A stretch of 64,000 nt of DNA, taken from the IMG/VR virus record IMGVR_UViG_3300021197_001203, positions 44,316 through 108,315 of that record, one strand, 5' to 3'. Made by a program: the position numbers and the translations under genes. Source of the DNA: a virus. Under the pieces are notes generated by a model. That model ran no database searches, was not told the DNA's origin, and was given only the letters and a program-made list of their open reading frames with translations. The first letter of the stretch is position 1, and the number at the start of each line of letters is the position of its first letter. Positions 1,043 through 34,775 of the stretch are shown here, one piece after another.

Positions 1043-1054
1043 TATCGGCACCGA

Positions 1055-1360
1055 AGCCTAGCCATTGCTCAATGGGTGTGGCGGGCTAACCACCATTCAC
1101 CAATGCCATTGCCCAGCCCCATTCAATAGCTAAACCCATTCGATCAGACCAGCTTGAGAACACATTGGTGAATGGCTGGGCTGAAACGCCCAGCAACACA
1201 CCCATTCAAGCCTAAATCTAGGGCTATTGACGGCTATCTGAGGCCATTCACGCCCATCCAGCCCACCGTATATCATTCGGGCTGGTTGCATTGGTCAATG
1301 AGGCCACATTGACACGCCATTCACCCATTCGCCAATCCCATTGACCAATGCCCAGCCAAA
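1055..1360. repeat. Dense array of CATT[CG]/[CG]AATG and CAGCC/GGCTG short motifs; probable terminus, packaging or origin region
   Basis: Roughly 20 CATT[CG]-type copies in both orientations within about 300 bp of non-coding DNA between divergent gene arms. Confidence 0.6.
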
Positions 1361-1703: not shown

Positions 1704-4700
1704 ATGAGTATGACAGAAATAATGAATGTAATGAGAATGATACTAGGCAGTCTATTGCCTAGCGTATTCGGCCAAAAGGCTGGATTAGAGATGACTGTAA
1801 TGAGTGAGGCTAGAATCGGTGAAGCTGCCGATCAATTATACCACACCGATTTAGTGCTAATACAACAAGAACTACGCACATTATCGCACGTTGTTATCAC
1901 CAATGAGTGGACTGGTGAACACCCAAAGAGAACCGATATGACACATGGTCTTGAAGCACAAATGAAAGTGGACAGATTAATCAAAGCGTCAGCAACACTA
2001 GAGACATACGCAAATGGCTGTGAATGTATCGAATGTAAGTTTGTAGTAGCAAAGGAGATGCCTAGCCTAAAGAATGTAGTATTAGGGACACCAGTGTCCT
2101 CATTCACATGGACAGGGACAGGTATGGTCGAAGAGGCCATTACACCTGACCCAGCACTAGAATTAGATGTGCCTATTACAGAAGATGAAATTAGGTATCA
2201 CATGAAGAAGTGGAACGGTGTAATACGGTCAACCTTCGTATGGCAACACAAAATGAATGCTGCTGAATTGATCGAAGATTTGCGTAAAGCGTCTTATCCT
2301 GCGGCTGGATATGAACCGACCTATGTTGGTGGTGGCAGTGATGCAGAACACGATTGGGTTGAGGCTAACTATAATTTCGATTCAGAATATGATAGAGAAA
2401 AGAATCGAATGAATGCTTCAATGGTAGTAGTGAATGAGGCTAGAACTGCAAATGGGTATAACCTCGATAGGGATAGGACAATACACGATGTTCAGCCAGT
2501 AGTTAAGTCAATGAAAGAAGTGGAGGGCTGGACACAAGAGATGCTCTATATTATTATCCGTGATAGCACAAACGCATCTGATCGAGTGGAGGCGGCTGAA
2601 ATGCTTGTTGAGCTAAAACAGAAGCAATTACACAGCTATCTGAAAGACAACCTAAAACCATCTGTCTTTAGAGCCGTGGATTTTGTTATTGGTTGTATGC
2701 CTAGCGACCTAGATTTGAACACGACAGTGGTGCAGGAATCCCGTGTTAATGATGAAGAACTTAGAGGCTTTCAAGACTATCGCATGGGTGCAACACATCA
2801 GGCTACTGATGGTCTATACTATGAGACACCATTAGATGAATGCCTGTGGCAGATTCTTGACCGAGAAGATGTGGAGGCTAATTGTGGCTTAGAAGAGGGT
2901 GAAATAACCGAAGCGGCTTGGAAACAATTTCTTGCGTTGCATAAGGATGCCTTCGCTAGTGCGGTTTGTGCGTTGGCTTCGGAATATTACAATGATTATC
3001 ATACACCAAAAGATGACTTGAGCGATACAGTAGTGCAGGAATCAAGAACTAGAATGTCATATATGTTCAAAGAAGGAGATGAATATCCAGTCTCAGTGGC
3101 AAATAAATCTCAAGCTCACAAAATGCTTGTTCATATGATTGCTCATGCTTCGGGGGACGGCACACCTATTGCTATCGTTGTGGCCAACACATATGCAGAT
3201 GAAGCCTTCGACATACCTATGGAAACTCCACATTCAGGAGATGAGTTATTGCATGGGACATATCAAGCAGTCAAAGAAGTTAGAGACGGACAGAGCGTTC
3301 ATGTTCAATTAAGTCGAGACGATGAAAGATTCGATCACACGACAGTAAAAACTAGCCATGTATGGGACAGGAGGACTTTGACTAATTCAGACATTAACAG
3401 ACTTAGAGAGCAATGGAATAGAGAGTTAGATGGTTTAGATTCAGACTCAAGATTCTTTCCTTATTCGATAACTGGTGCGAGGGCTGCTTCTAGCTTAATT
3501 GGCCAGCTTCTGACTAAAGCAGAAGATGATGATTATGGCGGTTCAGTAATGGTCAATGTTCTATGTGCCGAATACAAAGCAGAACAGGTGTTGCGTGTGT
3601 ATAATTTGAAAGATGAGTTTGGCGATCAGATTATGTCTCAAGCGGCTGGGTATAATCTCCCAATGACCGATGTAAGTCTGTTAGAGATGAGTCATTCAGT
3701 ACCACTCATTGGTTATCGTGAGGCTAAAAATACCTTTATTTCATTAGATGGAGGTCGCTGGAGTCTTTCATGGGCTATTACTGGTAGTTATGATGATATG
3801 ACTAATGAGTCGCCTAGAATAGAGATTAGCAACCATTACGTTATTGACAAATCAATTAGAGATTTGTGCGACCACATATTAACACGAAAAGACAGTGGTC
3901 GCTTACTAACCACAGGACAGGTAAAGTCTGATGTGTTAGTCAAAGCCACAAGTAAAGAAAACACATATCTTGTTTCAGACCACCAGTTAAAGATAGTCAA
4001 GAAGGATTTGGCTGACCTTCGATCAGCCGCACAGCTCTCGCTAGATGACACAGTAGTCCATGAGGTTAGATTGGACATACCTGATGAGCATTGGGACACA
4101 CTGATGGAGACATTACTACTAGATACTGAAACAATGGCAATAGAGCCGTCTGAGAGGGACAGAATACGTGAGGCTTTGGATAGTGTCGAGACAGTCAATC
4201 CTTTCTTTGATAGAGGTCAATTGCATTGTGGATTTGATGTTCTTAAGAATCCACTTTACAGAATATCTCTTGCTGATGCGATTAATGTATGTAAAGCAGG
4301 AGGATTAGTGTGGTTGGCTAATGAATCTCAAGATAACTATGGAGGGGAGGACAGCAGACACTATTCATACCCCGTTGAGAACCATGAAGACCTATATGAT
4401 TATGAAGATAGTGAAGAATTATTGATCGTATTAGAACCAATGTTTTACAATAAGCATGGTAATTTACTGGAGGGACATATACTACCTAATTCTAAAGATG
4501 GTGTATGGAAGGTGTCATTGACTCTAGCTAGAGATGCGAGACATAGATTAGCTGATGAAACACACTTCGATGAAGAGCATATTGAAGGCGAAATTAAGTC
4601 ATGGTTAGAGGACATAGACTACCGTGTCCTTGAGTGCGACATTATAGATGTATCAAACATCCCTAATGCTAACGATGGGGTCTATGACTTAGGTGATGCT

Positions 4701-5420
4701 GTAAAGAATCAATTAATGGCTGTCGAGACAGAAGAAGAGGTCAAAGAAATAGCGATTCTTTATCAGACCCGTCAAGCATGGTTGGATGGTTTCAGACACA
4801 AGAATGAGGAAGGTGAATATGAATTGCTTGAGCCTAGCACCAAAGAACAAATTGACGCTTTGTATGTCCCATTACCTAATTCAGTCGTTCTTGATGTGAT
4901 AGAGCAATTACAACCAGTATGGGGTTATCATTGGTCAAAGGTAGTAGGCAATCTTGATACTGTGTCTGATCAGATATTTCACATAATGAACCACGACAAT
5001 AGGAATCCATTGTCAGTCAGTTTCCATAAGCATGGTATAGACGGAGATAGAACCATGCAGAATTGGATGGGGGACAACGGACTGGGACATACATCAATGA
5101 GTATGAATGACGTGATAGCCTACCGACTTACAGACGGCTGGGTGTATCACAGTTGCAGAGCTTTAGGATGGGCGTGGTTGCCTGTTATTCATCAGGCTCA
5201 AGGGGCAGAGAATATGACTCGCTTTGAAAAGGTAAAAGCAATGATTAATCTTGATACAAACAGGATTCCGCTTCAAGAGGGAGAATTAGAATTGATTGAG
5301 GCTATGGTTAATGGTTTTAACCATCCCCGTATCAATGACTCATGGGGGGAACTCAATGAAGATGGAATGTTTTGGGCTACAAAAGCCATGGAAACTCTGA
5401 GTCATGAGGTGATCGAATGA
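1704..5420 (+). CDS. Large modular early protein (polyvalent/polyprotein-like) with repeated linkers and a YodL-like domain near the C-terminus
   Basis: 1238 aa, acidic. Five xxxVV[QNHS]E[SAV]R-type motifs. QIFHIMN...GHTSMSMNDVI...CRALGW resembles the YodL-like H[TS]S[LM]SV[GS]DV signature. Confidence 0.75.
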   Translation: MSMTEIMNVMRMILGSLLPSVFGQKAGLEMTVMSEARIGEAADQLYHTDLVLIQQELRTLSHVVITNEWTGEHPKRTDMTHGLEAQMKVDRLIKASATLETYANGCECIECKFVVAKEMPSLKNVVLGTPVSSFTWTGTGMVEEAITPDPALELDVPITEDEIRYHMKKWNGVIRSTFVWQHKMNAAELIEDLRKASYPAAGYEPTYVGGGSDAEHDWVEANYNFDSEYDREKNRMNASMVVVNEARTANGYNLDRDRTIHDVQPVVKSMKEVEGWTQEMLYIIIRDSTNASDRVEAAEMLVELKQKQLHSYLKDNLKPSVFRAVDFVIGCMPSDLDLNTTVVQESRVNDEELRGFQDYRMGATHQATDGLYYETPLDECLWQILDREDVEANCGLEEGEITEAAWKQFLALHKDAFASAVCALASEYYNDYHTPKDDLSDTVVQESRTRMSYMFKEGDEYPVSVANKSQAHKMLVHMIAHASGDGTPIAIVVANTYADEAFDIPMETPHSGDELLHGTYQAVKEVRDGQSVHVQLSRDDERFDHTTVKTSHVWDRRTLTNSDINRLREQWNRELDGLDSDSRFFPYSITGARAASSLIGQLLTKAEDDDYGGSVMVNVLCAEYKAEQVLRVYNLKDEFGDQIMSQAAGYNLPMTDVSLLEMSHSVPLIGYREAKNTFISLDGGRWSLSWAITGSYDDMTNESPRIEISNHYVIDKSIRDLCDHILTRKDSGRLLTTGQVKSDVLVKATSKENTYLVSDHQLKIVKKDLADLRSAAQLSLDDTVVHEVRLDIPDEHWDTLMETLLLDTETMAIEPSERDRIREALDSVETVNPFFDRGQLHCGFDVLKNPLYRISLADAINVCKAGGLVWLANESQDNYGGEDSRHYSYPVENHEDLYDYEDSEELLIVLEPMFYNKHGNLLEGHILPNSKDGVWKVSLTLARDARHRLADETHFDEEHIEGEIKSWLEDIDYRVLECDIIDVSNIPNANDGVYDLGDAVKNQLMAVETEEEVKEIAILYQTRQAWLDGFRHKNEEGEYELLEPSTKEQIDALYVPLPNSVVLDVIEQLQPVWGYHWSKVVGNLDTVSDQIFHIMNHDNRNPLSVSFHKHGIDGDRTMQNWMGDNGLGHTSMSMNDVIAYRLTDGWVYHSCRALGWAWLPVIHQAQGAENMTRFEKVKAMINLDTNRIPLQEGELELIEAMVNGFNHPRINDSWGELNEDGMFWATKAMETLSHEVIE

Positions 5421-8284
5421 GCTGGAAAGTAATTGAGCTAGCCGACTCAACACCAGCACCTGCTATGGATGGTGATGAATCCTTTGACACTATGGGGGGT
5501 TATGCACATACAAGTCTATACGAACGTGCGGTCAAGCTGGGCGCATGGTGTCCTTCAACAAACAAAGACGGCTTCATGTGGTCCATTGAACAAGCTGAGA
5601 TATTAACTAAGACTCAAGTCGATTTAGTTAAATGGACACACTACGGAATACCTTGTCGTGTTTCGATCAATAGTGTTGCAGGTAGTGGTAAAACTACACT
5701 GATTGAAGGGATTGCCAAATTGATTTGTAATATGGGGCTAGGCAATCAGAAGATAATCATGACAGCCTTTAACACCCACATAGCAAAGGCATTAGGTGAT
5801 GTGGCTAAGTCTCTCAAGAAGAGTGGTCTAACAGGCTTCAAATCAATGGGTTATAGCAACACAGCCTCAGCTGGTGGTCGTGAGCTGTTATTCAAAATGA
5901 TAAGGGCTAATGGTATGACACCTATTCAGGATGACCAATACAAATACAGGAGTCTCAGTCGCCAAGTGTTTTCTGAGATAGCAGGAATGAAAGAGATGTT
6001 GATAGGCATAACAAGTCAGCATGAAGAGATTAAGAATCCAGTGGCTGGATGGATGAGTGGCACTAGGGCTATTGAACACCTAGTAAGTGCATCAATGGCC
6101 AGTGGGATAATTACAGAGACAGAAGGTAGTATTGATTCGATCAAGAAATTGATTACAAGTGAACACGGACAACGTGATGATGTAGTATTTCTAATTAGTT
6201 TCCTCGGTGTTGATGCAGTGGCTAATGCTGTTGAACAAGTCATAGAGAGGGCTATGGACACTTTGGTGTCAGACATAGTGTATAGAGCAGACAAGGATGC
6301 AGTAGTGCCTGATTCAGTCTCAGGCTACTATTCACGCAGGTCATTAGTATCAGTGGCCGAATTACTAGCCCAGCCCAATGGACACCAAATACACAGGCAG
6401 TTAGGTGTGGACTTTCCATACAGGAAAGAAGTGCCTAAACAGGTAATGAATCATGAGCTTGGTAGTTTAGCTAAAGTTCAGAATCGTGGTGGTGTATCAG
6501 GCACTTACAAAGTATTGATCGAAGATGTTGATGATGGGTCAGCTTGTTTTAGGTCAGCTAGCTATGCAGCATCTAATATTGTCATGGGTAGTGTTCAGGA
6601 CATAGAAACAAGGCTGGGAGTTTCGTTTCAATATGTCCCTCGCAATAATCAGGTTGTTCTTCGTAATTTAATCAGGACAGCCTCAGAAGACAACCAAGCA
6701 CCAGTGCCTGAATGTCAATACAGATACATTGTATCTAAGGACAGGGCACAAATATTGAAGGCTATTATTAACGAAGTATTAGGTGCAAAGAATGTCGAAT
6801 ATAGCAGTGAAGAGGTTCTTACGACAGGAGTCGCTACATCAGGCAGCAATGCCACTGTGCCTGTGTCGATGCAGGACTTTGTGTATGGTTGTGTTTATCA
6901 TAATCTAACCGACCCAGCACCAGCGGCTATGATAATGATTGATGAGGTGCAAGACTTTTCTCAATTACAAGGTAGGTTCTTACAGTGCTTTTCTAGTTCT
7001 AATACTTCTATGATTTGTGTGGGTGATGTTAGACAAAGCTTGTATCTATTCAATTTTGCTAACAGTAAAGCGACCAAGATGATCATAAATGATTTCAATT
7101 GTGATGTGATGCCTATGACTATTTGCTGGCGAAACAGTAAGAATGTAGTCTATGATGTTCATCAATTTGTCAATCAATGTATTGCTGAGGCGGGGGTTGA
7201 TGGTTATGATAAATACAAGTTATTGAATGCTGGTATGGGTGATTATTCAGCACATAAATGTCCTGATGCGGATTACTGGCCTGATGGTAAAAGGTCTGTT
7301 GTTATGCCAGCGCATTTGCTACCTTATGCGGCTCAATTAGGAGATATAGTGTCGTGTAGGATAAATGCGCCATTGGCTAAATTAGCTTTGAGGACGCTAG
7401 TGGATGGTGAAAAGAGTATTACATTACCCGCTGGTAAAAAGGGAATAGGTGAAGAGGTTATGTCAATAGTCAAGGGTGGCTTGAGATATAATGGGGCGCA
7501 TCAAGGATTCGGTTTGTTAAATGGTGATGAAGCTAGAGAATATCTCGATCATGATACAATAGAAAAGAGATATGATTCATACATGGACACTAACTATGAA
7601 GCGGCGGTAAAGAGGTGTGGTGGTGATTTGACAGCGGCTAAAAGTGAGGCTACTTATGTAAAGCTGGCCGATATTGCTGATGCAGCTCAGACGTTGCTTC
7701 ATGGTTATATTGACAGAAGAGGCGAAAGTGGGACAGCACCAATGGCTAAGTTTGAGGGTTGGTTGAACACTTTATGCGGTGAAACAGAAGGCAGGTCAGG
7801 TCATGATAATACTATCAGATTTGCATCGGTTCATAGGACAAAAGGCGCACAAGGCAAACAGGCATTCGTAATAACTGATCGAATAAACCACGAAGGTCAA
7901 TTGAAACCCACGTTTATGTTGCCACATTGCATGAATAATGCAGCCGAGGTCGTGCAGGAAATAAATGCAGCTTATGTAGCAGCAACGAGAGCCATTGATA
8001 GAGTGGTCTTTGTTTCCTTCTCTCAAGCACTAGCTGATAAATATCCAACATGGGAATCATTCAGCTTAGTATGGAATCAAGAGATAGAAGAAGGTCAGAA
8101 GGTTGTAGCAACACAGAAGATAATTGACCAAGATAACGAATATGGGGTCATAGCTAACACTGGCGATTCAGGAGAGGTTATCCATGTAGCTGAGGATGGT
8201 TTTCCTTGCGTTAGATTTGAAAGCGGTTTAGCTACCGATGTATCATTCGACCAAATAGTGGAGGCGAACAAGCACGATGAGTGA
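5417..8284 (+). CDS. Superfamily 1 (UvrD/Rep-like) helicase with large insertion and C-terminal SH3-like extension
   Basis: Motifs AGSGKTT, TAFN, IDEVQD, VGDVRQSLYLF, ICWRN, SVHRTKGAQ, YVAATRA. Confidence 0.9.
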   Translation: MSWKVIELADSTPAPAMDGDESFDTMGGYAHTSLYERAVKLGAWCPSTNKDGFMWSIEQAEILTKTQVDLVKWTHYGIPCRVSINSVAGSGKTTLIEGIAKLICNMGLGNQKIIMTAFNTHIAKALGDVAKSLKKSGLTGFKSMGYSNTASAGGRELLFKMIRANGMTPIQDDQYKYRSLSRQVFSEIAGMKEMLIGITSQHEEIKNPVAGWMSGTRAIEHLVSASMASGIITETEGSIDSIKKLITSEHGQRDDVVFLISFLGVDAVANAVEQVIERAMDTLVSDIVYRADKDAVVPDSVSGYYSRRSLVSVAELLAQPNGHQIHRQLGVDFPYRKEVPKQVMNHELGSLAKVQNRGGVSGTYKVLIEDVDDGSACFRSASYAASNIVMGSVQDIETRLGVSFQYVPRNNQVVLRNLIRTASEDNQAPVPECQYRYIVSKDRAQILKAIINEVLGAKNVEYSSEEVLTTGVATSGSNATVPVSMQDFVYGCVYHNLTDPAPAAMIMIDEVQDFSQLQGRFLQCFSSSNTSMICVGDVRQSLYLFNFANSKATKMIINDFNCDVMPMTICWRNSKNVVYDVHQFVNQCIAEAGVDGYDKYKLLNAGMGDYSAHKCPDADYWPDGKRSVVMPAHLLPYAAQLGDIVSCRINAPLAKLALRTLVDGEKSITLPAGKKGIGEEVMSIVKGGLRYNGAHQGFGLLNGDEAREYLDHDTIEKRYDSYMDTNYEAAVKRCGGDLTAAKSEATYVKLADIADAAQTLLHGYIDRRGESGTAPMAKFEGWLNTLCGETEGRSGHDNTIRFASVHRTKGAQGKQAFVITDRINHEGQLKPTFMLPHCMNNAAEVVQEINAAYVAATRAIDRVVFVSFSQALADKYPTWESFSLVWNQEIEEGQKVVATQKIIDQDNEYGVIANTGDSGEVIHVAEDGFPCVRFESGLATDVSFDQIVEANKHDE

Positions 8285-12068: not shown

Positions 12069-13703
12069 ATGGGACGAGATGAACAACCAATATATGTATT
12101 GAATCAAAACATAGACCGCAAACAAGGCAGGACAGCACAGCGCAGTAATATAGCTGCGGCCAAAGCAGTAGCTGAAGCTGTTCGATCAACATTAGGGCCA
12201 AGCGGTTCTGATAAGATGTTGGTATCAGGAGAGGGTAAAAGCGTCATAATAACTAATGATGGTGCTACAATACTGAGAGAGATAGATTGCCAACACCCAG
12301 CGGGACAGCTTATGATTAGTGTCGCTGAAGTCCAAGAAGAAGTAGCTTATGACGGCACCACAAGCTCGGTTATAGTAGCAGGTAGTCTATTAGCTGAAGC
12401 TGAACAATTAATATCCAAAGGCATACATCCCACTACTATTTGTAAAGGTTTCAAGAGTGCTTCTAAGGTTGCGTTAGAAAAAATTAAGAGTCAGGCTAAA
12501 GATGTTGAAATGATGATGGAGGCTTCAGACCTTGAAAAAGAGGCGGCTCTGTCTATGATTGCTAAAACCGCATTAACTGGTAAATCCGCAGAGAGTGAGA
12601 TTGACCAAATAGCAGGATTAGCTATTGATTCAGTCATGAGAGTAGGTGGAGAGGGTAAAGCGGATTTGGATGACATTAAGATATTGACATTTTCAGGTGC
12701 TAGCTTTGAAGACTCACATATTTTAGATGGAGTGCTTCTTGAAAAAGAGCCAGTGCATAGTCAGATGCCCACATCAGCGAGTGGTAAAATATTGTGTCTA
12801 ACATCTGATATTGAAGTTAGAGAATTAAAACAAGAGACTACCCTTTCGATCACAGACCCAAACGCACTAGAACAATTTCTAGCTAAAGAAGAGGCGGCCT
12901 TGTTAGAGATGGTTGATGCTATAAAAGCGTCAAAGAGTAAAATTGTGCTGTGTAAAGGGGCTATTGATGAGTTGGCCCAGCACTACTTACAGAATGCAGG
13001 AATTATAGCTGTGAACCGTGTGAAAATGTCAGACCTTCAATTAGTTTGTAAATCCACAGGGGCAAAGCTAGTCAATTCTTTGAAAGATATTAGTCAGAAG
13101 GATTTAGGAGATGGTGCTACCGATGTAGTGGAGTATGGTGATCATAAATGCCTACACATATATGGCGAAAACGCCAACAATCCTTCACCTGTTTCAGCTG
13201 TTTTACGAGGTGTTAGCTCTCATACAGCCGAAGAGTTAGAACGAGCTTTTGATGATACTGTGGGGGTTGTTTCCGTTGCTTATATTAATAATCAATTTTT
13301 AGTGGGTGGCGGGGCATCATACATGGGTTTGTCAAAGGAATTGAATAGCTATGCAAAGTCTGTTGGTGGACGTGAACAAATGGCCGTTGAAGCGTTTGCT
13401 AGAGCATTAGAGAGTGTCCCAATAACATTAGCCGAGAATGCTGGTGCTGATGCCGTTGATGTTATGATTCAGTTGAGGCACGTTGTCGCTAATAATCCCC
13501 GTTCAGTTCACGGTATTGACATGAGTGGTAAAGTAAGTAATATTCTAACCGAGAAGGTCATAGAGCCAGCGATAGTCATCGAATCAGCAGTTAAATCGGC
13601 TACTGAAGCAGCTGTGTCTATTCTGAGGATTGACGATGTTTTGAGTATGAAGCCAGCTGGTGGGCCTATGGGTGGTATGCCTAGTATGGGTGGTATGGGC
13701 TAA
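12069..13703 (+). CDS. ths: Thermosome subunit (group II chaperonin)
   Basis: RSTLGP.G.DKMLV, ITNDGATILRE, (Y)DGTTS, GIHPT, LAENAG, ILRIDD and a C-terminal GGM repeat. Confidence 0.95.
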   Translation: MGRDEQPIYVLNQNIDRKQGRTAQRSNIAAAKAVAEAVRSTLGPSGSDKMLVSGEGKSVIITNDGATILREIDCQHPAGQLMISVAEVQEEVAYDGTTSSVIVAGSLLAEAEQLISKGIHPTTICKGFKSASKVALEKIKSQAKDVEMMMEASDLEKEAALSMIAKTALTGKSAESEIDQIAGLAIDSVMRVGGEGKADLDDIKILTFSGASFEDSHILDGVLLEKEPVHSQMPTSASGKILCLTSDIEVRELKQETTLSITDPNALEQFLAKEEAALLEMVDAIKASKSKIVLCKGAIDELAQHYLQNAGIIAVNRVKMSDLQLVCKSTGAKLVNSLKDISQKDLGDGATDVVEYGDHKCLHIYGENANNPSPVSAVLRGVSSHTAEELERAFDDTVGVVSVAYINNQFLVGGGASYMGLSKELNSYAKSVGGREQMAVEAFARALESVPITLAENAGADAVDVMIQLRHVVANNPRSVHGIDMSGKVSNILTEKVIEPAIVIESAVKSATEAAVSILRIDDVLSMKPAGGPMGGMPSMGGMG

Positions 13704-14246: not shown

Positions 14247-14377
14247 ATGAAGAGAATGACAACAGATAAAACGGAATGTAATGGTAAAGAATGTATGTGC
14301 GGCACTAAATCATCAGGTGAGATGATAGTGCCTATTGGACAGGGACACAGCTGGTGTCTTGATTGTGGAGGGATTGT

Positions 14378-15427
14378 ATGAGCCACATGAAACATGAATC
14401 ATGGATGATCAGATTGGACAACAAAGCAGTTAATAAAATGGAGTTAGTAAAACACTTCTGTCTAAATATAGACTGGGATTCGATTGTCGATCAAGCGTAT
14501 GACTGGTGTAAAGAGAATCATTACTTAGGTCAGCAGCCTACACTTATGGATGAATTGCCTAAAGTAAAGCAGACAGAATATAGCTCAAATAAAAGAATGG
14601 CCGACCTATGGTCTAATACTGAATCCTCATTAAGAAGTCAAGCAATACTTAGAAGACAGCCAGTAAAAGTAGGCGGTGGATTCATTGTGCGATTTAGTGG
14701 TAATGGGTCAAGAGCTGGCCCTCATTACGGTTGCACACTTGGGACTAATTGGGTATCGACAAAGGCAGGTGTTGATACAATAATCCATGAGCTGGCGCAT
14801 ATAGCTCATCTAGGACGTTATCATAAAGCAGTGATTAATGGACGGGCTAGGCCACACGATATATTTTACAATAGGATTATGCTGACTGCTATGGACGCAG
14901 CGTTTGGTTTGACTAAATCATGCACTGACCCCATTTACATGGGTTATTCTGTTGGTAATGGCTATGCGCCAACATCAAAGGTAAAAGGAATGATTAATCT
15001 TGATACAGACAGGATGAAGCCATTCATCACAAGAGAAAACTTTGATTGGTTGGATGATCGAGAAGAAGCAAAACAAATCAAGGCGGCTAAACCAAAGAAA
15101 CAACGAATTACAAGACAAACAGGTGAAGGGACATACGAAACTAATTGTGGTGATATTGAAATTACCAATGTTGGTGGCTACGGCTATACTTGTTATGAGA
15201 TTGAAGCACCAAACGGATTCAATTGGTGTGGTGCCCATTACAAAGAAGTTAATACAATCAAAGAGGCGTATTCCTACCTAGGCACGTATGACAAAGACAA
15301 GGGACGATACACAGGTGATGAGCTAGAACGATGCGAGGCTGGTTGTGATTGTGAATGGGACGTTGTTGATAGCGAGCATTACAGTTCTGTCCGATCACTT
15401 GATGGTCTAGCGTCATTGTTTGCATAG
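14378..15427 (+). CDS. Zincin-like (SprT-like) metallopeptidase domain protein
   Basis: IIHELAHIAH (HExxH) with a downstream PHDIFY third ligand. Start reassigned to ATG 14378 after GGAGG. Confidence 0.7.
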   Translation: MSHMKHESWMIRLDNKAVNKMELVKHFCLNIDWDSIVDQAYDWCKENHYLGQQPTLMDELPKVKQTEYSSNKRMADLWSNTESSLRSQAILRRQPVKVGGGFIVRFSGNGSRAGPHYGCTLGTNWVSTKAGVDTIIHELAHIAHLGRYHKAVINGRARPHDIFYNRIMLTAMDAAFGLTKSCTDPIYMGYSVGNGYAPTSKVKGMINLDTDRMKPFITRENFDWLDDREEAKQIKAAKPKKQRITRQTGEGTYETNCGDIEITNVGGYGYTCYEIEAPNGFNWCGAHYKEVNTIKEAYSYLGTYDKDKGRYTGDELERCEAGCDCEWDVVDSEHYSSVRSLDGLASLFA

Positions 15428-32193: not shown

Positions 32194-33943
32194 TATCAGG
32201 ATGCACGATGTTGCTTAATTGATCGATAGTAGTCACGCCACCTTTGTCTAAGAATCGTTGCACGTTATGGTTAGGGTTTTCTAAATGGAACGCTGTTTCC
32301 GGTTGCACAGGAGGTAATGCCCCCAGTGCTTCTTCAGTAGCCCTACCAAAGTCTGTACCCATTTGGAACGGTATAATTGATTTAGCGTGATATGCGGGTA
32401 CTGATACTTTTTTCCCAGTGATTGGATTAATGTAGCTGAAACCTCTTGTTTGTTGTGTACCACGGTTTGACCCTTTAGGTGCAAAGGCATATCCAGCACC
32501 CGAAAGTATGCTGCCCATCGTCCTTACTTTTCCTTCACGATTCCCAAATTGAAAGCTATCCAATAATGCGTCTCTAGGTTGTCTAGTTAATGAATTACTT
32601 TTCATGCCTTTTTTTGAAAACTTTCTCATACCCTCTAATAATATTTCATCTAAGAAAGCTCTAGGCACAGGAACAGATGAACTTCTAAGTTGAGGGACGC
32701 TAGAGAAATCACTGTATTTTGCTTTAGTATTAAACAACACGTCTTTTCTAGGGTCTTTAGATATTTGTCCTATTCTTGGTCTAGGCACCCACCCTTTAGG
32801 AAACCTACCAAAAAAATCTGTTCTCTTTAACGGTGGAAGATTCGCAGCACCATACCTCAATTGTTCACCTGTATTCCCTGCATATTTTATTGATGTCTCT
32901 AAGGGGTCTAAACCAGTCCCAGTAATAGGTGATCGATTTTGGGCTATACCGAAGAGAGAGGCTACTGGGTCAGAATAAGATGCGTGATTGACCGAAGCAA
33001 AATCAGGTAATATTTTACTGTATGTCATCGGCATAAATCTAGCCATCCCCGTAGGGTTTTCAAGAATACTAAACATATCGGGATTACGGCGTGTCATCTC
33101 TTCAACTAATTTGAAAGTATCACGGAATAATTTTGCAGTTCCTTTATTAGACCCTCCAAAGTTTTTCTTTTTACCAGTAATAGGGTCGGTCCTCCAATCA
33201 GGCATTTTTGGTTTCCAATTACCAGCTGGATTTTCATCAGTCGATTCTCCCATCCACGCTGGGGCTTCATTTGTAGTGCCTCTAGCCTCTAGTGCTTCTC
33301 TTTTCCCTTCTTTATTATATCCCTCCGGTTCGTGCCATTTACTACCTACGGCAGCAACACTCATATCAACACAGGTAGGACTACCGAATAACACATCAGG
33401 CATACGACCACCAAAATGATCTTCGATTTCATTTACAGATAAGTCCTGTATATCAGATAAGAACGTAGGGGTTATACCCATTTGCTTACTGTCAGGGCCA
33501 CCCGTTTTACCCCAATCAGACGTTGCCCCTGTATGTCCTCTTCGATACATATCAGAACCCCAGCCACCCGGCAAAACCTTTTCTCCACCTACTCCTGAAA
33601 ACAATTCCATTGACATAAGTTCCTTTTGTTTAGGGGACATATTAGGACGCTCAGGTGCTAACACTGCTACACTCAATTCTTCTTCAGATGCTTTCGCAAT
33701 ATGTTTGCGGCTACCTCCCGCGCCCAGCTGCCTACGCATTGTAGGTCTAACATTACCCCTTGATTTGTTTCTTGAGTATCTTCTTTGAGTCTTTGCTCGT
33801 TTATTCTTACGGCTCTTATTCCAAGCTCTAGCTTTAGCTTGTCTCTCAGCTCGGCCACTTATTGTATTGCGTGAATAACCAGTGAACTTACCCTTGTCCT
33901 CATTCTTGGTCATCTCCCAAGCCTCATCAAAAGGATCAGTCAC
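32159..33943 (-). CDS. Late protein: FDEAW leader, Arg/Lys-rich segment and C5 DNA-cytosine methyltransferase-like domain
   Basis: Begins MTDPFDEAWEMTK. Motif I-like MELFSG, DI.DL, motif IV-like PDVLFGSPTC..MS.A, motif VI-like ILENP.G, and KRTDFF. Confidence 0.7.
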   Translation of the reverse strand: MTDPFDEAWEMTKNEDKGKFTGYSRNTISGRAERQAKARAWNKSRKNKRAKTQRRYSRNKSRGNVRPTMRRQLGAGGSRKHIAKASEEELSVAVLAPERPNMSPKQKELMSMELFSGVGGEKVLPGGWGSDMYRRGHTGATSDWGKTGGPDSKQMGITPTFLSDIQDLSVNEIEDHFGGRMPDVLFGSPTCVDMSVAAVGSKWHEPEGYNKEGKREALEARGTTNEAPAWMGESTDENPAGNWKPKMPDWRTDPITGKKKNFGGSNKGTAKLFRDTFKLVEEMTRRNPDMFSILENPTGMARFMPMTYSKILPDFASVNHASYSDPVASLFGIAQNRSPITGTGLDPLETSIKYAGNTGEQLRYGAANLPPLKRTDFFGRFPKGWVPRPRIGQISKDPRKDVLFNTKAKYSDFSSVPQLRSSSVPVPRAFLDEILLEGMRKFSKKGMKSNSLTRQPRDALLDSFQFGNREGKVRTMGSILSGAGYAFAPKGSNRGTQQTRGFSYINPITGKKVSVPAYHAKSIIPFQMGTDFGRATEEALGALPPVQPETAFHLENPNHNVQRFLDKGGVTTIDQLSNIVHPDTIRYLQEMGHL

Positions 33944-34581
33944 TGGACATCACCTACATTTAACATCAATTCAGGGTCAATGTCTAGCAGCTGTTCTTGA
34001 TCGTACTGCCCTCTTAAGGGCATACCTTGTAAAATAAGCTGTCTTTGCATATCAGGGAAGTAATTTGATGATAGTTCAATAGGGACAGGGACGTTTCCTA
34101 AGAGTTGAAGTATAGCCATCATCCTGTGTCTGCCTTCATGCCCCACAATATCTCTTGATTGAGACACTTTGCCCAAAGTAGTATCGTTATTTGATGCAAT
34201 TCTTAGATTGGGGATATAAGTAGGCTTGCCCTCTTTCATTCCCTGTATAATATTTTCTGTACGAGGGTTTTTTTGTTTCTTCTTCTTATCCCACCACATA
34301 TAGTCCTGTAATACGCTGCCGTACATTTGTTCACCTTTATGATTCCCTTTTATTGGAGAGGTGAGCCTGAGATAGTCCTGTGGCTTCATCATGGTCTTAG
34401 TATGGTAGCTTCCAAAAACCGGACTCCCCCCCATCGGATAATAATTCGTTTCTCCATCTATGCCGGGTTCTCGCCAGCTTCTGCCCTTGTCGTTTTCTTC
34501 TTTATCCCAAAACTCCGTAGGGCCGACTTTGTATGTAGCCATTTTGACTAATGCCCAACCATGTTGAAAGGCATCGCTCAT
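33940..34581 (-). CDS. Late protein: FQHGW leader and ParB/Srx-like domain
   Basis: Likely start ATG 34581 (ATGA overlap): MSDAFQHGWALVK. Contains M.P.DYL.L, P.L.I and IVGHEGRHRMMA...G..PVP. Confidence 0.7.
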   Translation of the reverse strand: MSDAFQHGWALVKMATYKVGPTEFWDKEENDKGRSWREPGIDGETNYYPMGGSPVFGSYHTKTMMKPQDYLRLTSPIKGNHKGEQMYGSVLQDYMWWDKKKKQKNPRTENIIQGMKEGKPTYIPNLRIASNNDTTLGKVSQSRDIVGHEGRHRMMAILQLLGNVPVPIELSSNYFPDMQRQLILQGMPLRGQYDQEQLLDIDPELMLNVGDVQ

Positions 34582-34775
34582 GTATGCGCCTTTGTTTTCA
34601 ATCCTTTTTTGAGTTTGGGGTTTATTTTTTTCCACACCGCATCACAAATAGGACATTCCCATAAGAAAATCCGGTCTCTCGATCCTGCATAAAATCCGTT
34701 TATACGGATAGCCAATACTCGATTAGAACACTCAGGGCAGTCTTGACTTATCTTATCCTGATAGTGATTGACCAT
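34578..34775 (-). CDS. Small zinc-ribbon protein
   Basis: CPEC...WECPIC; coupled to genes on both sides. Confidence 0.7.
   Translation of the reverse strand: MVNHYQDKISQDCPECSNRVLAIRINGFYAGSRDRIFLWECPICDAVWKKINPKLKKGLKTKAHT

What the first reader, a model, noticed from the sequence alone, without database searches (positions are those of the whole stretch)
1704..5420. First early gene is a modular giant punctuated by a repeated linker motif: possible polyprotein
Five copies: LEMTVMSEAR (1785-1814), ASMVVVNEAR (2415-2444), LNTTVVQESR (2715-2744), LSDTVVQESR (3018-3047), LDDTVVHEVR (4041-4070). They separate segments of about 100-450 aa with no visible mutual similarity, resembling concatenated small phage early proteins, and the last region includes a YodL-like domain known from polyvalent proteins. 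Inference: the linker is a protease site, a docking motif or a recombination joint for shuffling anti-host modules. The early HExxH peptidase (14378) is one candidate processing enzyme.
Basis: partly seen in the sequence, partly recalled or inferred. Interest (0 to 1): 0.75.

Follow-up and report, generated by a model that had tools for sequence, protein, structure and literature searches.

The report
Linker-punctuated cassette protein of a magrovirus
The first gene of the replication arm of a marine archaeal virus encodes a 1238-residue string of unrelated small-protein modules, joined at five places by one conserved ten-residue linker that is most likely a cutting site, though no cleavage has been shown.

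Summary
ORF 1704-5420 (1238 aa) carries five copies of [LA]xx[TV]V[VM]xExR at the stated coordinates. Shuffling predicts 0.07 copies, and no other copy lies in a gene of the 108-kb genome.

The host genome is a magrovirus-like archaeal tailed virus: it encodes a thermosome-type chaperonin and an HK97-type prohead protease.

The segments between motifs are unrelated to each other. Several have stand-alone small-protein homologs whose ends coincide with motifs 3, 4 and 5. In orthologs, motifs 2 and 4 bracket a hypervariable stretch, and one module plus one motif behaves as a cassette indel.

The codons of the five copies differ about as much as codon usage alone predicts, so selection acts on the peptide, not the DNA.

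The motif is not a universal separator. The last 449 aa hold at least five further modules without it. The C-terminal module is shared with a larger family of multi-module proteins that use a different linker, AE[ST]F[GE]A[ED].

My best reading is an in-frame cassette array (an archaeal-virus "polyvalent protein") whose linker is a protease site, perhaps Glu-specific. Cleavage and the protease are untested, and nothing ties the HExxH protein to processing. The YodL-like call rests on weak leads only.

The parts
1704..5420 (+). Whole ORF P0001, 1238 aa. It is the first gene of the + strand arm and overlaps the start of the UvrD-like helicase gene (5417-8284) by ATGA.
1704..1784 (+). N-terminal 27-aa hydrophobic/amphipathic leader (MSMTEIMNVMRMILGSLLPSVFGQKAG), nearly invariant in orthologs.
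1785..1814 (+). Linker motif 1, LEMTVMSEAR.
1815..2414 (+). Module A (aa 38-237). Conserved in orthologs; no other homologs found.
2415..2444 (+). Linker motif 2, ASMVVVNEAR. It is the left edge of the hypervariable stretch: 0 of 20 columns are conserved just after it.
2445..2714 (+). Module B (aa 248-337). Its sub-modules occur in a different order in P0002 and P0003.
2715..2744 (+). Linker motif 3, LNTTVVQESR.
2745..3017 (+). Module C (aa 348-438). It matches stand-alone 86- and 93-aa proteins (P0028, P0058, Tara Oceans) that end exactly where motif 4 starts. It is absent from P0002 and P0003, so it behaves as a cassette.
3018..3047 (+). Linker motif 4, LSDTVVQESR. It is the right edge of the hypervariable stretch.
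3048..4040 (+). Module D (aa 449-779). Conserved in orthologs; function unknown.
4041..4070 (+). Linker motif 5, LDDTVVHEVR. In the AF2 model of aa 760-925 it lies in a coil between the last helix of D and the first helix of E0.
4071..4202 (+). Module E0 (aa 790-833). Stand-alone homologs P0032 and P0045; P0032 begins at the position of motif 5.
4233..4451 (+). Module E1 (aa 844-916). Stand-alone homologs P0030, P0031, P0033, P0035 and P0037, three of which carry an FDxAWxIAK leader. Model pLDDT is 78-87.
4497..4661 (+). Module E2 (aa 932-986). Stand-alone 52-80-aa homologs P0026 and P0038-P0044.
4761..5177 (+). Module E3 (aa 1020-1158). Stand-alone homologs P0022, P0023, P0034 and P0036. Possibly YodL-like, on weak evidence.
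5202..5405 (+). Mosaic C-terminal module F (aa 1167-1234), absent from P0002 and P0003. It consists of GAENMTRFE (the start of module F, with its linker remnant, as in the AESFGAE-linker family), then a 39-nt patch shared with the HExxH gene, then about 140 nt that are ~96% identical to a stand-alone ORF in L003.
14363..15427 (+). The motif IIHELxHxxH is invariant in its four homologs. It has no Pfam or NCBIfam match. Its role in processing is not shown.

Best explanation
P0001 is an in-frame array of small-protein cassettes, the archaeal-virus counterpart of a phage 'polyvalent protein'. It is encoded at the head of the replicative arm of a magrovirus-like virus. The decapeptide [LA]xx[TV]V[VM]xE[ASV]R is a dedicated inter-cassette linker kept by selection on the peptide.

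Most likely it is the recognition site of a sequence-specific endopeptidase. I favour cleavage after the invariant Glu (P4 Val, P1 Glu, P1' Ala/Ser/Val, P2' Arg); cleavage after the Arg is the alternative. Cleavage would strip the 27-aa leader and release modules A, B, C and D and the C-terminal block E-F as separate proteins.

Because the linkers lie between autonomously folding units, they are also the places where cassette insertions and deletions survive.

Shown: the motif copies, their statistics, the module boundaries, the stand-alone homologs, the cassette indels and the peptide-level conservation. Inferred: cleavage, the scissile bond and the protease. The protease could be the HExxH protein, the HK97-type prohead protease, a cryptic protease module, or a host enzyme.
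For: - Motif statistics: five copies against 0.07 expected, and none elsewhere in genes of the genome.
- Peptide-level selection: at identical residues the codons are identical in 26 of 54 cases against 18.7 expected from codon usage, and the longest exact DNA run between copies is 11 nt. The motif is conserved in orthologs P0002 and P0003 even where both flanks are unalignable.
- Boundaries: stand-alone P0028 ends exactly at motif 4. Stand-alone P0032 starts at motif 5. Motif 5 is modelled as coil between a helix of D and a helix of E0.
- A copy sits directly after a conserved 27-aa N-terminal leader, as in pro-peptide removal.
- The modules are unrelated to each other, and six of them exist as independent 52-167-aa proteins elsewhere.
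- A sibling family sharing module F uses another strictly conserved, Glu-rich linker: AE[ST]F[GE]A[ED], 61 copies in 18 of 20 proteins. Conserved linkers are therefore a general device in this virus group.
- The Val-x-x-Glu / small-residue pattern resembles sites of Glu/Gln-specific viral proteases. This is from my own knowledge and is a lead only.
Against: - There is no evidence of cleavage.
- No peptidase domain is detectable in P0001.
- No trypsin-like or T4-type protease is in the genome. The only recognisable protease is an HK97-type prohead protease in the structural arm, whereas this gene sits in the replicative arm.
- At least five module junctions after motif 5 lack the motif, so the protein need not be fully processed.
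- Cassette indels bounded by linkers fit a recombination role equally well.
- The structural models are poor: pLDDT 28 for the 1200-aa model and 63 for aa 760-925.
Confidence: 0.42

Rival explanations
1. The linker is mainly a recombination joint. Short conserved linker-coding DNA lets cassettes be swapped in frame between genomes, as the VENN or PxxxxDPxGL motifs mark exchangeable C-terminal toxins in CdiA and Rhs proteins. The protein works uncut as beads on a string.
For: - Motifs 2 and 4 bracket the only hypervariable stretch of the orthologs.
- P0003 joins the motif-3 flank straight to module D, so module C plus one motif is an indel.
- In the sibling family, P0005 and P0056 are 826/829 identical except for a 43-aa cassette sitting inside an AESFGAE linker, with 'AES' repeated at both ends.
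- Module F entered P0001 together with the 'GAE' remnant of its linker.
- These genomes exchange short patches: a 39-nt and a ~140-nt patch are shared with other genes.
Against: - Within the gene the copies share at most 11 exact bases, and codon identity is near the codon-usage expectation. DNA homology is therefore not what is conserved.
- A joint needs no invariant Glu and Arg.
- A copy right after the N-terminal leader has no obvious exchange role.
- Breakpoints also occur away from motifs: sub-modules of B are reordered, and patches lie inside module F.
- Indels between direct repeats are expected whatever the repeats are for.
Confidence: 0.2
2. The linker is a short docking motif: a beta-strand-forming peptide flanked by acidic residues. 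It is present in five copies to bind a multimeric partner, such as the capsid interior (as encapsulin or T4 targeting peptides do), a chaperonin, a replication factor or a ubiquitin-like protein. It is not cut.
For: - Conservation is at the peptide level, and the motif lies in a coil or linker.
- The flanks are acidic or polar.
- The same genome puts another short tag, FDxAWxxVK, on about 17 minus-arm proteins and between domains. Stand-alone homologs of module E1 carry that tag.
Against: - No partner is known.
- The motif occurs in one gene only, whereas a general docking tag would be expected on several proteins.
- Its strict placement at module borders, including borders of swappable cassettes, is not required for docking.
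Confidence: 0.18
3. The motif is a structural element inherited passively: the same first or last strand of a linker-plus-domain unit that was duplicated when the cassettes were added. It has no function of its own.
For: - The last three residues of motif 5 (EVR) align with the first strand of stand-alone E0 homologs.
- Codon identity is elevated for pairs 1-2 and 3-4.
Against: - The flanking modules are unrelated.
- P0028 shows that the motif belongs to neither neighbour.
- A neutral relic would have drifted at the peptide level as its codons did.
Confidence: 0.08

Closest known systems
Polyvalent proteins of phages and conjugative elements (Iyer, Burroughs, Anand, de Souza, Aravind 2017, PMC5512222)
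   Same: One polypeptide strings together many unrelated small domains that also occur as stand-alone proteins. The domain set varies between close relatives. A possible YodL-like domain is present. Processing by a zincin-like peptidase is proposed for that class.
   Different: - The host is an archaeal virus.
- None of the catalogued domains is detected with confidence.
- The polypeptide contains no peptidase domain.
- That paper's text does not contain the word 'linker' (0 occurrences), and I found no repeated linker motif described for that class.
- The gene lies in the replicative arm, and packaging into the virion is unknown.
Viral polyproteins cut at repeated sites by a Glu/Gln-specific protease (picorna-, poty-, arteri- and astrovirus type; own knowledge)
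   Same: Unrelated functional units sit in one ORF, with a 7-10-residue conserved site at the junctions. The site pattern is hydrophobic P4, Glu P1 and a small P1' residue.
   Different: This is a dsDNA tailed virus of archaea. No chymotrypsin-like protease is found. Only half of the junctions carry the site. Cleavage is not shown.
Pre-toxin demarcation motifs of polymorphic toxins (VENN in CdiA, PxxxxDPxGL in Rhs; own knowledge)
   Same: A short conserved peptide marks the border between a constant part and exchangeable cassettes. Indels and swaps occur at it.
   Different: Here there are several copies per protein rather than one. No toxin-immunity pair is present. Internal cassettes are exchanged, not only the C-terminus.
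T4 internal proteins and phiKZ inner-body proteins processed by the prohead protease (own knowledge)
   Same: A short N-terminal leader is followed by a hydrophobic-x-Glu site, and unrelated small effector-like proteins are involved.
   Different: The genome has an HK97-type S78 protease, not the T4-type S77. The gene is not in the structural arm. The motif is absent from the capsid and scaffold proteins.
AE[ST]F[GE]A[ED]-linker proteins found here (P0004-P0021, P0027; undescribed in the literature searched)
   Same: They share module F with P0001. They have multi-cassette architecture, a hypervariable middle between constant ends, and cassette indels exactly at the linker.
   Different: The linker sequence differs. 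They often start with a CxxCGC motif or a P-loop domain and often end in a transmembrane helix. The family is much wider than the P0001 family, which has three clusters of full-length proteins plus two fragments.

Membership tests
Polyvalent proteins (Iyer et al. 2017) | 2-15 unrelated domains in one polypeptide of a virus or plasmid | tested here: met
   At least 10 modules with no mutual similarity, six of them with stand-alone homologs.
Polyvalent proteins (Iyer et al. 2017) | Contains catalogued effector or anti-defence domains (MPTase, ArdC-N, DarA, YodL, LPDs and others) | tested here: inconclusive
   P0001 has no Pfam or PHROG hit. YodL is reached only through homolog P0034, below the cut-off, and through an Atlas lead. 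The direct YodL search was negative.
Polyvalent proteins (Iyer et al. 2017) | Zincin-like peptidase domain within the polypeptide for self-processing | tested here: not met
   No peptidase domain and no HExxH-family hit in P0001. A separate HExxH gene lies 9 kb downstream.
Polyvalent proteins (Iyer et al. 2017) | Delivered into the host with the DNA (packaged in the virion) | not testable with these tools
   This needs virion proteomics. The gene lies in the replicative arm.
Protease-processed viral polyprotein | Conserved cleavage motif at the junctions of independent units | tested here: met
   Five conserved motifs sit at module borders. The later junctions lack it.
Protease-processed viral polyprotein | Cognate protease encoded by the virus | tested here: inconclusive
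   An HK97-type S78 protease and an HExxH protein exist. There is no trypsin-like or S77 protease. Nothing links either candidate to the motif.
Protease-processed viral polyprotein | Cleavage products observed | not testable with these tools
   This needs expression or proteomics.
Polymorphic-toxin-like cassette system (VENN / Rhs type) | Conserved peptide motif at the border of constant and variable parts | tested here: met
   Motifs 2 and 4 bracket the hypervariable stretch.
Polymorphic-toxin-like cassette system (VENN / Rhs type) | Variable C-terminal toxin with an adjacent immunity gene, and orphan cassettes carrying the motif DNA | tested here: not met
   The downstream gene is a UvrD-like helicase. 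No other motif copy lies in any gene of the genome.
Pfam YodL (PF14191) | Score above Pfam's gathering threshold (24 bits) | tested here: not met
   There is no hit for P0001 or the genome. The best relative, P0034, scores 22 bits.

The most novel reading that the evidence does not exclude
Magroviruses run a protein-level cassette system. Short conserved peptides (TVVxExR here, AESFGAE in a larger sibling family, and perhaps the FDxAWxxVK leader on single proteins) serve at once as in-frame recombination joints and as protease or targeting signals. Small host-directed effector domains can thus be shuffled between viruses, translated as one polyprotein and released. This would be the first polyprotein strategy described in a tailed dsDNA virus of archaea.
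Probability: 0.2. Interest if true: 0.85.

Novelty: new variant of a known kind. Interest (0 to 1): 0.62.

Why it matters
Magroviruses are abundant, uncultivated viruses of marine group II archaea, and most of their genes have no known function (PMC5434244).

A gene that visibly concatenates small orphan proteins shows which of these belong together. The conserved linker, its sibling linker family and recent cassette indels show how these viruses shuffle such proteins.

If the linkers are cleavage sites, this is a polyprotein expression strategy in an archaeal dsDNA virus. Its highly specific protease-and-site pair could then be found and tested by simple co-expression.

If the linkers are recombination joints, it is a natural in-frame domain-shuffling device.

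Either way, the three peptide signals (TVVxExR, AESFGAE, FDxAWxxVK) give concrete handles for mining and for experiments in a system that cannot yet be grown.

Tried and rejected
Approaches that gave nothing:
Scans of viral contigs, metagenome contigs and genome contigs found no relative of P0001, P0005, the HExxH protein or the helicase. The phage collection had no match by DNA or protein. The test of where DNA similarity breaks between genomes was therefore impossible.
- AF2 of aa 1-1200 with a 3-sequence alignment was useless (pLDDT 28).
- Foldseek of the aa 760-925 model gave no significant match in the PDB or BFVD.
- A profile search against PDB sequences found nothing.
- The ESM Atlas found nothing for module D.
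- A degenerate DNA scan for AESFGAE in IMG/VR gave 50 loci. Nearly all are chance or other families; only L034 and L036 look related.
- A global MAFFT alignment of short stand-alone homologs to the long protein misplaced modules. I therefore used a restricted alignment.

Readings rejected:
- One repeated homologous domain: rejected, no similarity between segments.
- Assembly chimera as the source of the mosaic C-terminus: rejected, because the same protein comes from an NCBI and an ENA assembly.
- T4-type prohead-protease site: rejected as family membership, no S77 protease.
- The 'NPEAR' in the prohead protease as a related site: rejected. From my knowledge of S78 proteases, it lies in the conserved C-terminal strand of that fold.
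- Internal translation starts at the motifs: rejected, start codons are not consistently present.
Full report
**Observation**

The ORF at window 1704-5420 (+) encodes 1238 aa (P0001).
- LEMTVMSEAR at nt 1785
- ASMVVVNEAR at nt 2415
- LNTTVVQESR at nt 2715
- LSDTVVQESR at nt 3018
- LDDTVVHEVR at nt 4041

The core [TVM]V..E.R is expected 0.07 times in shuffles of the protein, and 0 of 5000 shuffles reached five copies. The window has no other copy in any of the six frames. The whole genome has only two loose matches, both on the strand opposite to the genes there.

The five segments between the motifs are 200, 90, 91, 331 and 449 aa long. They show no similarity to each other (best blastp E = 0.11). 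The motifs are therefore not a strand of one repeated domain.

**What the genome is**

The window is bases 44316-108315 of a 108,315-bp virus record with 41.7% G+C. About 30 kb of genes lie on the + strand (window 1704-32193), and the rest lie on the minus strand.

The + arm encodes a UvrD-like helicase directly after P0001, a group II (thermosome-type) chaperonin (Pfam E = 2.7e-136) and a weak primase-like match. The minus arm encodes an HK97-type prohead protease (Peptidase_S78, E = 3.5e-12).

A roughly 100-kb genome with a replicative block, a thermosome subunit and halovirus-like head genes matches the published description of magroviruses, the viruses of marine group II archaea (PMC5434244). 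That paper's text contains neither 'polyprotein' nor 'linker'.

P0001 is the first ORF of the + arm. Upstream lies a non-coding stretch with iteron-like CCATTSACCAATG repeats. The label 'early' is an assumption.

**The protein is a string of independent modules**

Pfam, PHROGs and NCBIfam find nothing in P0001. A full HMMER search of 1.84 billion representatives with aa 38-1237 found 42 proteins. These were one ortholog cluster plus short proteins that each match one small piece. In protein coordinates:
- aa 376-436: P0028, 86 aa
- aa 789-833: P0032 and P0045
- aa 853-916: P0030, P0031, P0033, P0035 and P0037, 58-138 aa
- aa 932-986: about ten proteins of 52-80 aa
- aa 1020-1158: P0022, P0023, P0034 and P0036, 120-167 aa
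- aa 1180-1234: about twenty multi-module proteins

The gene is therefore a fusion of units that live elsewhere as separate small proteins. P0058, a 93-aa relative of module C, comes from Tara Oceans data and sits on a 103-kb contig.

**Do the motifs sit at module borders?**

Yes, wherever this can be tested.
- P0028 aligns to aa 377-438 and ends one residue later, exactly where motif 4 begins.
- P0032 aligns from its residue 6 to aa 788, so the free protein starts at the TVV of motif 5.
- An AF2 model of aa 760-925 (8 sequences, mean pLDDT 63) puts aa 761-778 in a helix, aa 779-793 (motif 5) in a low-confidence coil, and aa 794 onwards in the helices of the next module.
- In the alignment with orthologs P0002 (1146 aa) and P0003 (1090 aa), identity falls to 0 of 20 columns right after motif 2. 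It is 2 of 30 just before motif 4 and then resumes.
- P0003 joins the flank of motif 3 (MPSDLDLN.TVVQE.R) directly to module D. Module C plus one motif is thus a cassette that is either present or absent.
- Between motifs 2 and 4 the three orthologs carry different and reordered sub-modules.

**Limits of the 'punctuation'**

The 449 aa after motif 5 contain at least five modules (E0-E3 and F) with stand-alone homologs and no TVVxExR between them.

The E0/E1 junction (HCGFDVLKN) aligns with the FDxAWxIAK leader that stand-alone E1 homologs carry. It may be a worn copy of that other signal, but this is weak.

**Peptide or DNA?**

The 30-nt copies are only 13-22 of 30 identical. At residues that are identical between copies, 26 of 54 codons are identical against 18.7 expected from the gene's codon usage. 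The longest exact run shared by any two copies is 11 nt.

What is conserved is therefore the peptide. This argues against a purely DNA-level recombination signal and for a function of the peptide itself.

**A sibling linker family**

The C-terminal module F of P0001 is missing from P0002 and P0003. It is shared with proteins of 112-872 aa (P0004-P0021, P0024, P0027).

Eighteen of twenty of these carry a different, strictly conserved linker, AE[ST]F[GE]A[ED]. I counted 61 copies, up to six per protein, separating segments of 27-270 aa. Many start with CxxCGC or a P-loop domain and end in a transmembrane helix.

P0004 and P0005 share their ends but have entirely different middle cassettes. P0005 and P0056 are 826/829 identical except for one 43-aa Cys-rich cassette. 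It lies inside a linker, with 'AES' repeated on both sides.

In P0001, module F begins with GAENMTRFE. It therefore arrived with the tail of its own linker.

Conserved linkers that bound swappable cassettes are thus a general device of this virus group. The literature search found none of these peptides.

**Mosaic C-terminus**

Window 5228-5266 is 37/39 identical to window 14977-15015, inside the HExxH gene (E = 9e-11). The patch is native to the HExxH lineage, since P0049 and P0050 also have it.

The next ~140 nt are about 96% identical to a stand-alone 116-aa ORF on an unrelated 47.6-kb IMG/VR contig (L003).

The same protein is present in independent NCBI and ENA assemblies (P0053 and P0054), so this is not an assembly artefact. 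These genomes evidently exchange very short patches.

**Mechanism**

I favour a protease site (about 0.4), for four reasons:
- The peptide is conserved while its codons drift.
- It lies in linkers that belong to neither neighbour.
- One copy follows a conserved 27-aa leader, as in pro-peptide removal.
- The pattern Val(P4)-x-x-Glu(P1)/small(P1')-Arg resembles sites of Glu/Gln-specific viral proteases. The sibling linker also offers Glu-small bonds. This last point is from my own knowledge and is only a lead.

Against this reading:
- Cleavage has not been shown.
- P0001 contains no peptidase domain.
- The genome has no trypsin-like or T4-type protease.
- The one clear protease belongs to head maturation.
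- The HExxH protein has a conserved IIHELxHxxH motif but no link to the motif.

The rivals are:
- A recombination joint (about 0.2). The cassette indels support it; the lack of DNA conservation within the gene weakens it.
- A docking motif (about 0.18). This genome does use another short tag, FDxAWxxVK, on about 17 minus-arm proteins.
- A passive structural relic (about 0.08).

The roles need not exclude each other. Any linker between autonomous units is where indels survive.

**YodL**

There is no direct hit. P0034, a free homolog of aa 1020-1158, matches the C-terminal third of the YodL model at E = 3.3e-4, which is 22 bits against a 24-bit cut-off. An ESM Atlas neighbour cluster (score 0.87) has YodL on 11% of its members. 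This is a lead, not a membership.

**Comparison with known systems**

The architecture is that of the polyvalent proteins of phages and conjugative elements (PMC5512222). It differs in four respects:
- The host is an archaeal virus.
- No catalogued domain is recognised with confidence.
- No peptidase is present in cis.
- A repeated dedicated linker is present. That paper's text does not contain the word 'linker'.

The gene also shares the 'conserved motif at the edge of a variable cassette' logic of CdiA (VENN) and Rhs toxins, and the 'site at every junction' logic of RNA-virus polyproteins. It is a member of neither family.

I class it as a new variant of a known kind.

**Tools and gaps**

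No nucleotide comparison between orthologous genes could be made. Only one motif (motif 5) has structural support, at moderate confidence.

Noticed in passing
window 5228-5266 and 14977-15015: A 39-nt patch is 37/39 identical between the C-terminal module of P0001 and the HExxH gene of the same arm (KVKAMINLDTNRI / KVKGMINLDTDRM; E = 9e-11). It is native to the HExxH lineage and was apparently copied into P0001.
   Followed up: partly
window ~5267-5406 and L003:8160-8300: About 140 nt of module F are ~96% identical to a stand-alone 116-aa ORF on an unrelated 47.6-kb IMG/VR contig (IMGVR_UViG_3300021197_000970). This points to a recent transfer of a very short patch.
   Followed up: partly
proteins P0004-P0021, P0027 (no DNA held): A large family of multi-cassette proteins is joined by the linker AE[ST]F[GE]A[ED] (61 copies in 18 proteins). 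Members often start with MCKTCGCKDAESF or a P-loop domain and end in a transmembrane helix. P0005 and P0056 differ only by one 43-aa Cys-rich cassette inserted in a linker. I found no description of this in the papers searched.
   Followed up: partly
window 1050-1360: The non-coding stretch between the divergent arms is packed with direct and inverted copies of CCATTSACCAATG-like 13-15-mers. They look like iterons, so this is a candidate origin or regulatory region. An AT-rich, TATA-like stretch follows at about 1490-1540, ahead of the gene.
   Followed up: no
genome 6.6-45.2 kb and 78.2-78.9 kb (window up to ~850 and 33900-34600), minus strand: The leader F[DEQ]x[ASG]Wxx[VIL]xK starts, or lies between domains of, about 17 minus-strand proteins, as other readers noted. 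Stand-alone homologs of module E1 from other viruses (P0031, P0033, P0037) carry the same leader.
   Followed up: partly
window 12069-13703 (+): A virus-encoded group II chaperonin (thermosome subunit; Pfam Cpn60_TCP1, E = 2.7e-136). It marks the genome as magrovirus-like.
   Followed up: partly
L036 (IMGVR_UViG_3300027845_000169, 150 kb), minus-strand ORF of 613 aa: A Cys-rich, membrane-anchored protein with looser AE[ST]-type linkers (GAETLEAE, KAESECS, SAESEDD, GAESFGAE) on a 150-kb viral contig. It may be a distant member of the linker family.
   Followed up: no
protein P0047 (319 aa, 1422-bp ENA contig): A relative of module D whose called ORF starts at the Met of the preceding motif (MTVVQESR...) and ends early (…SKENRKEKNKD) where P0001 continues. 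This could be a frameshift, a truncated variant or a separately encoded module D.
   Followed up: no
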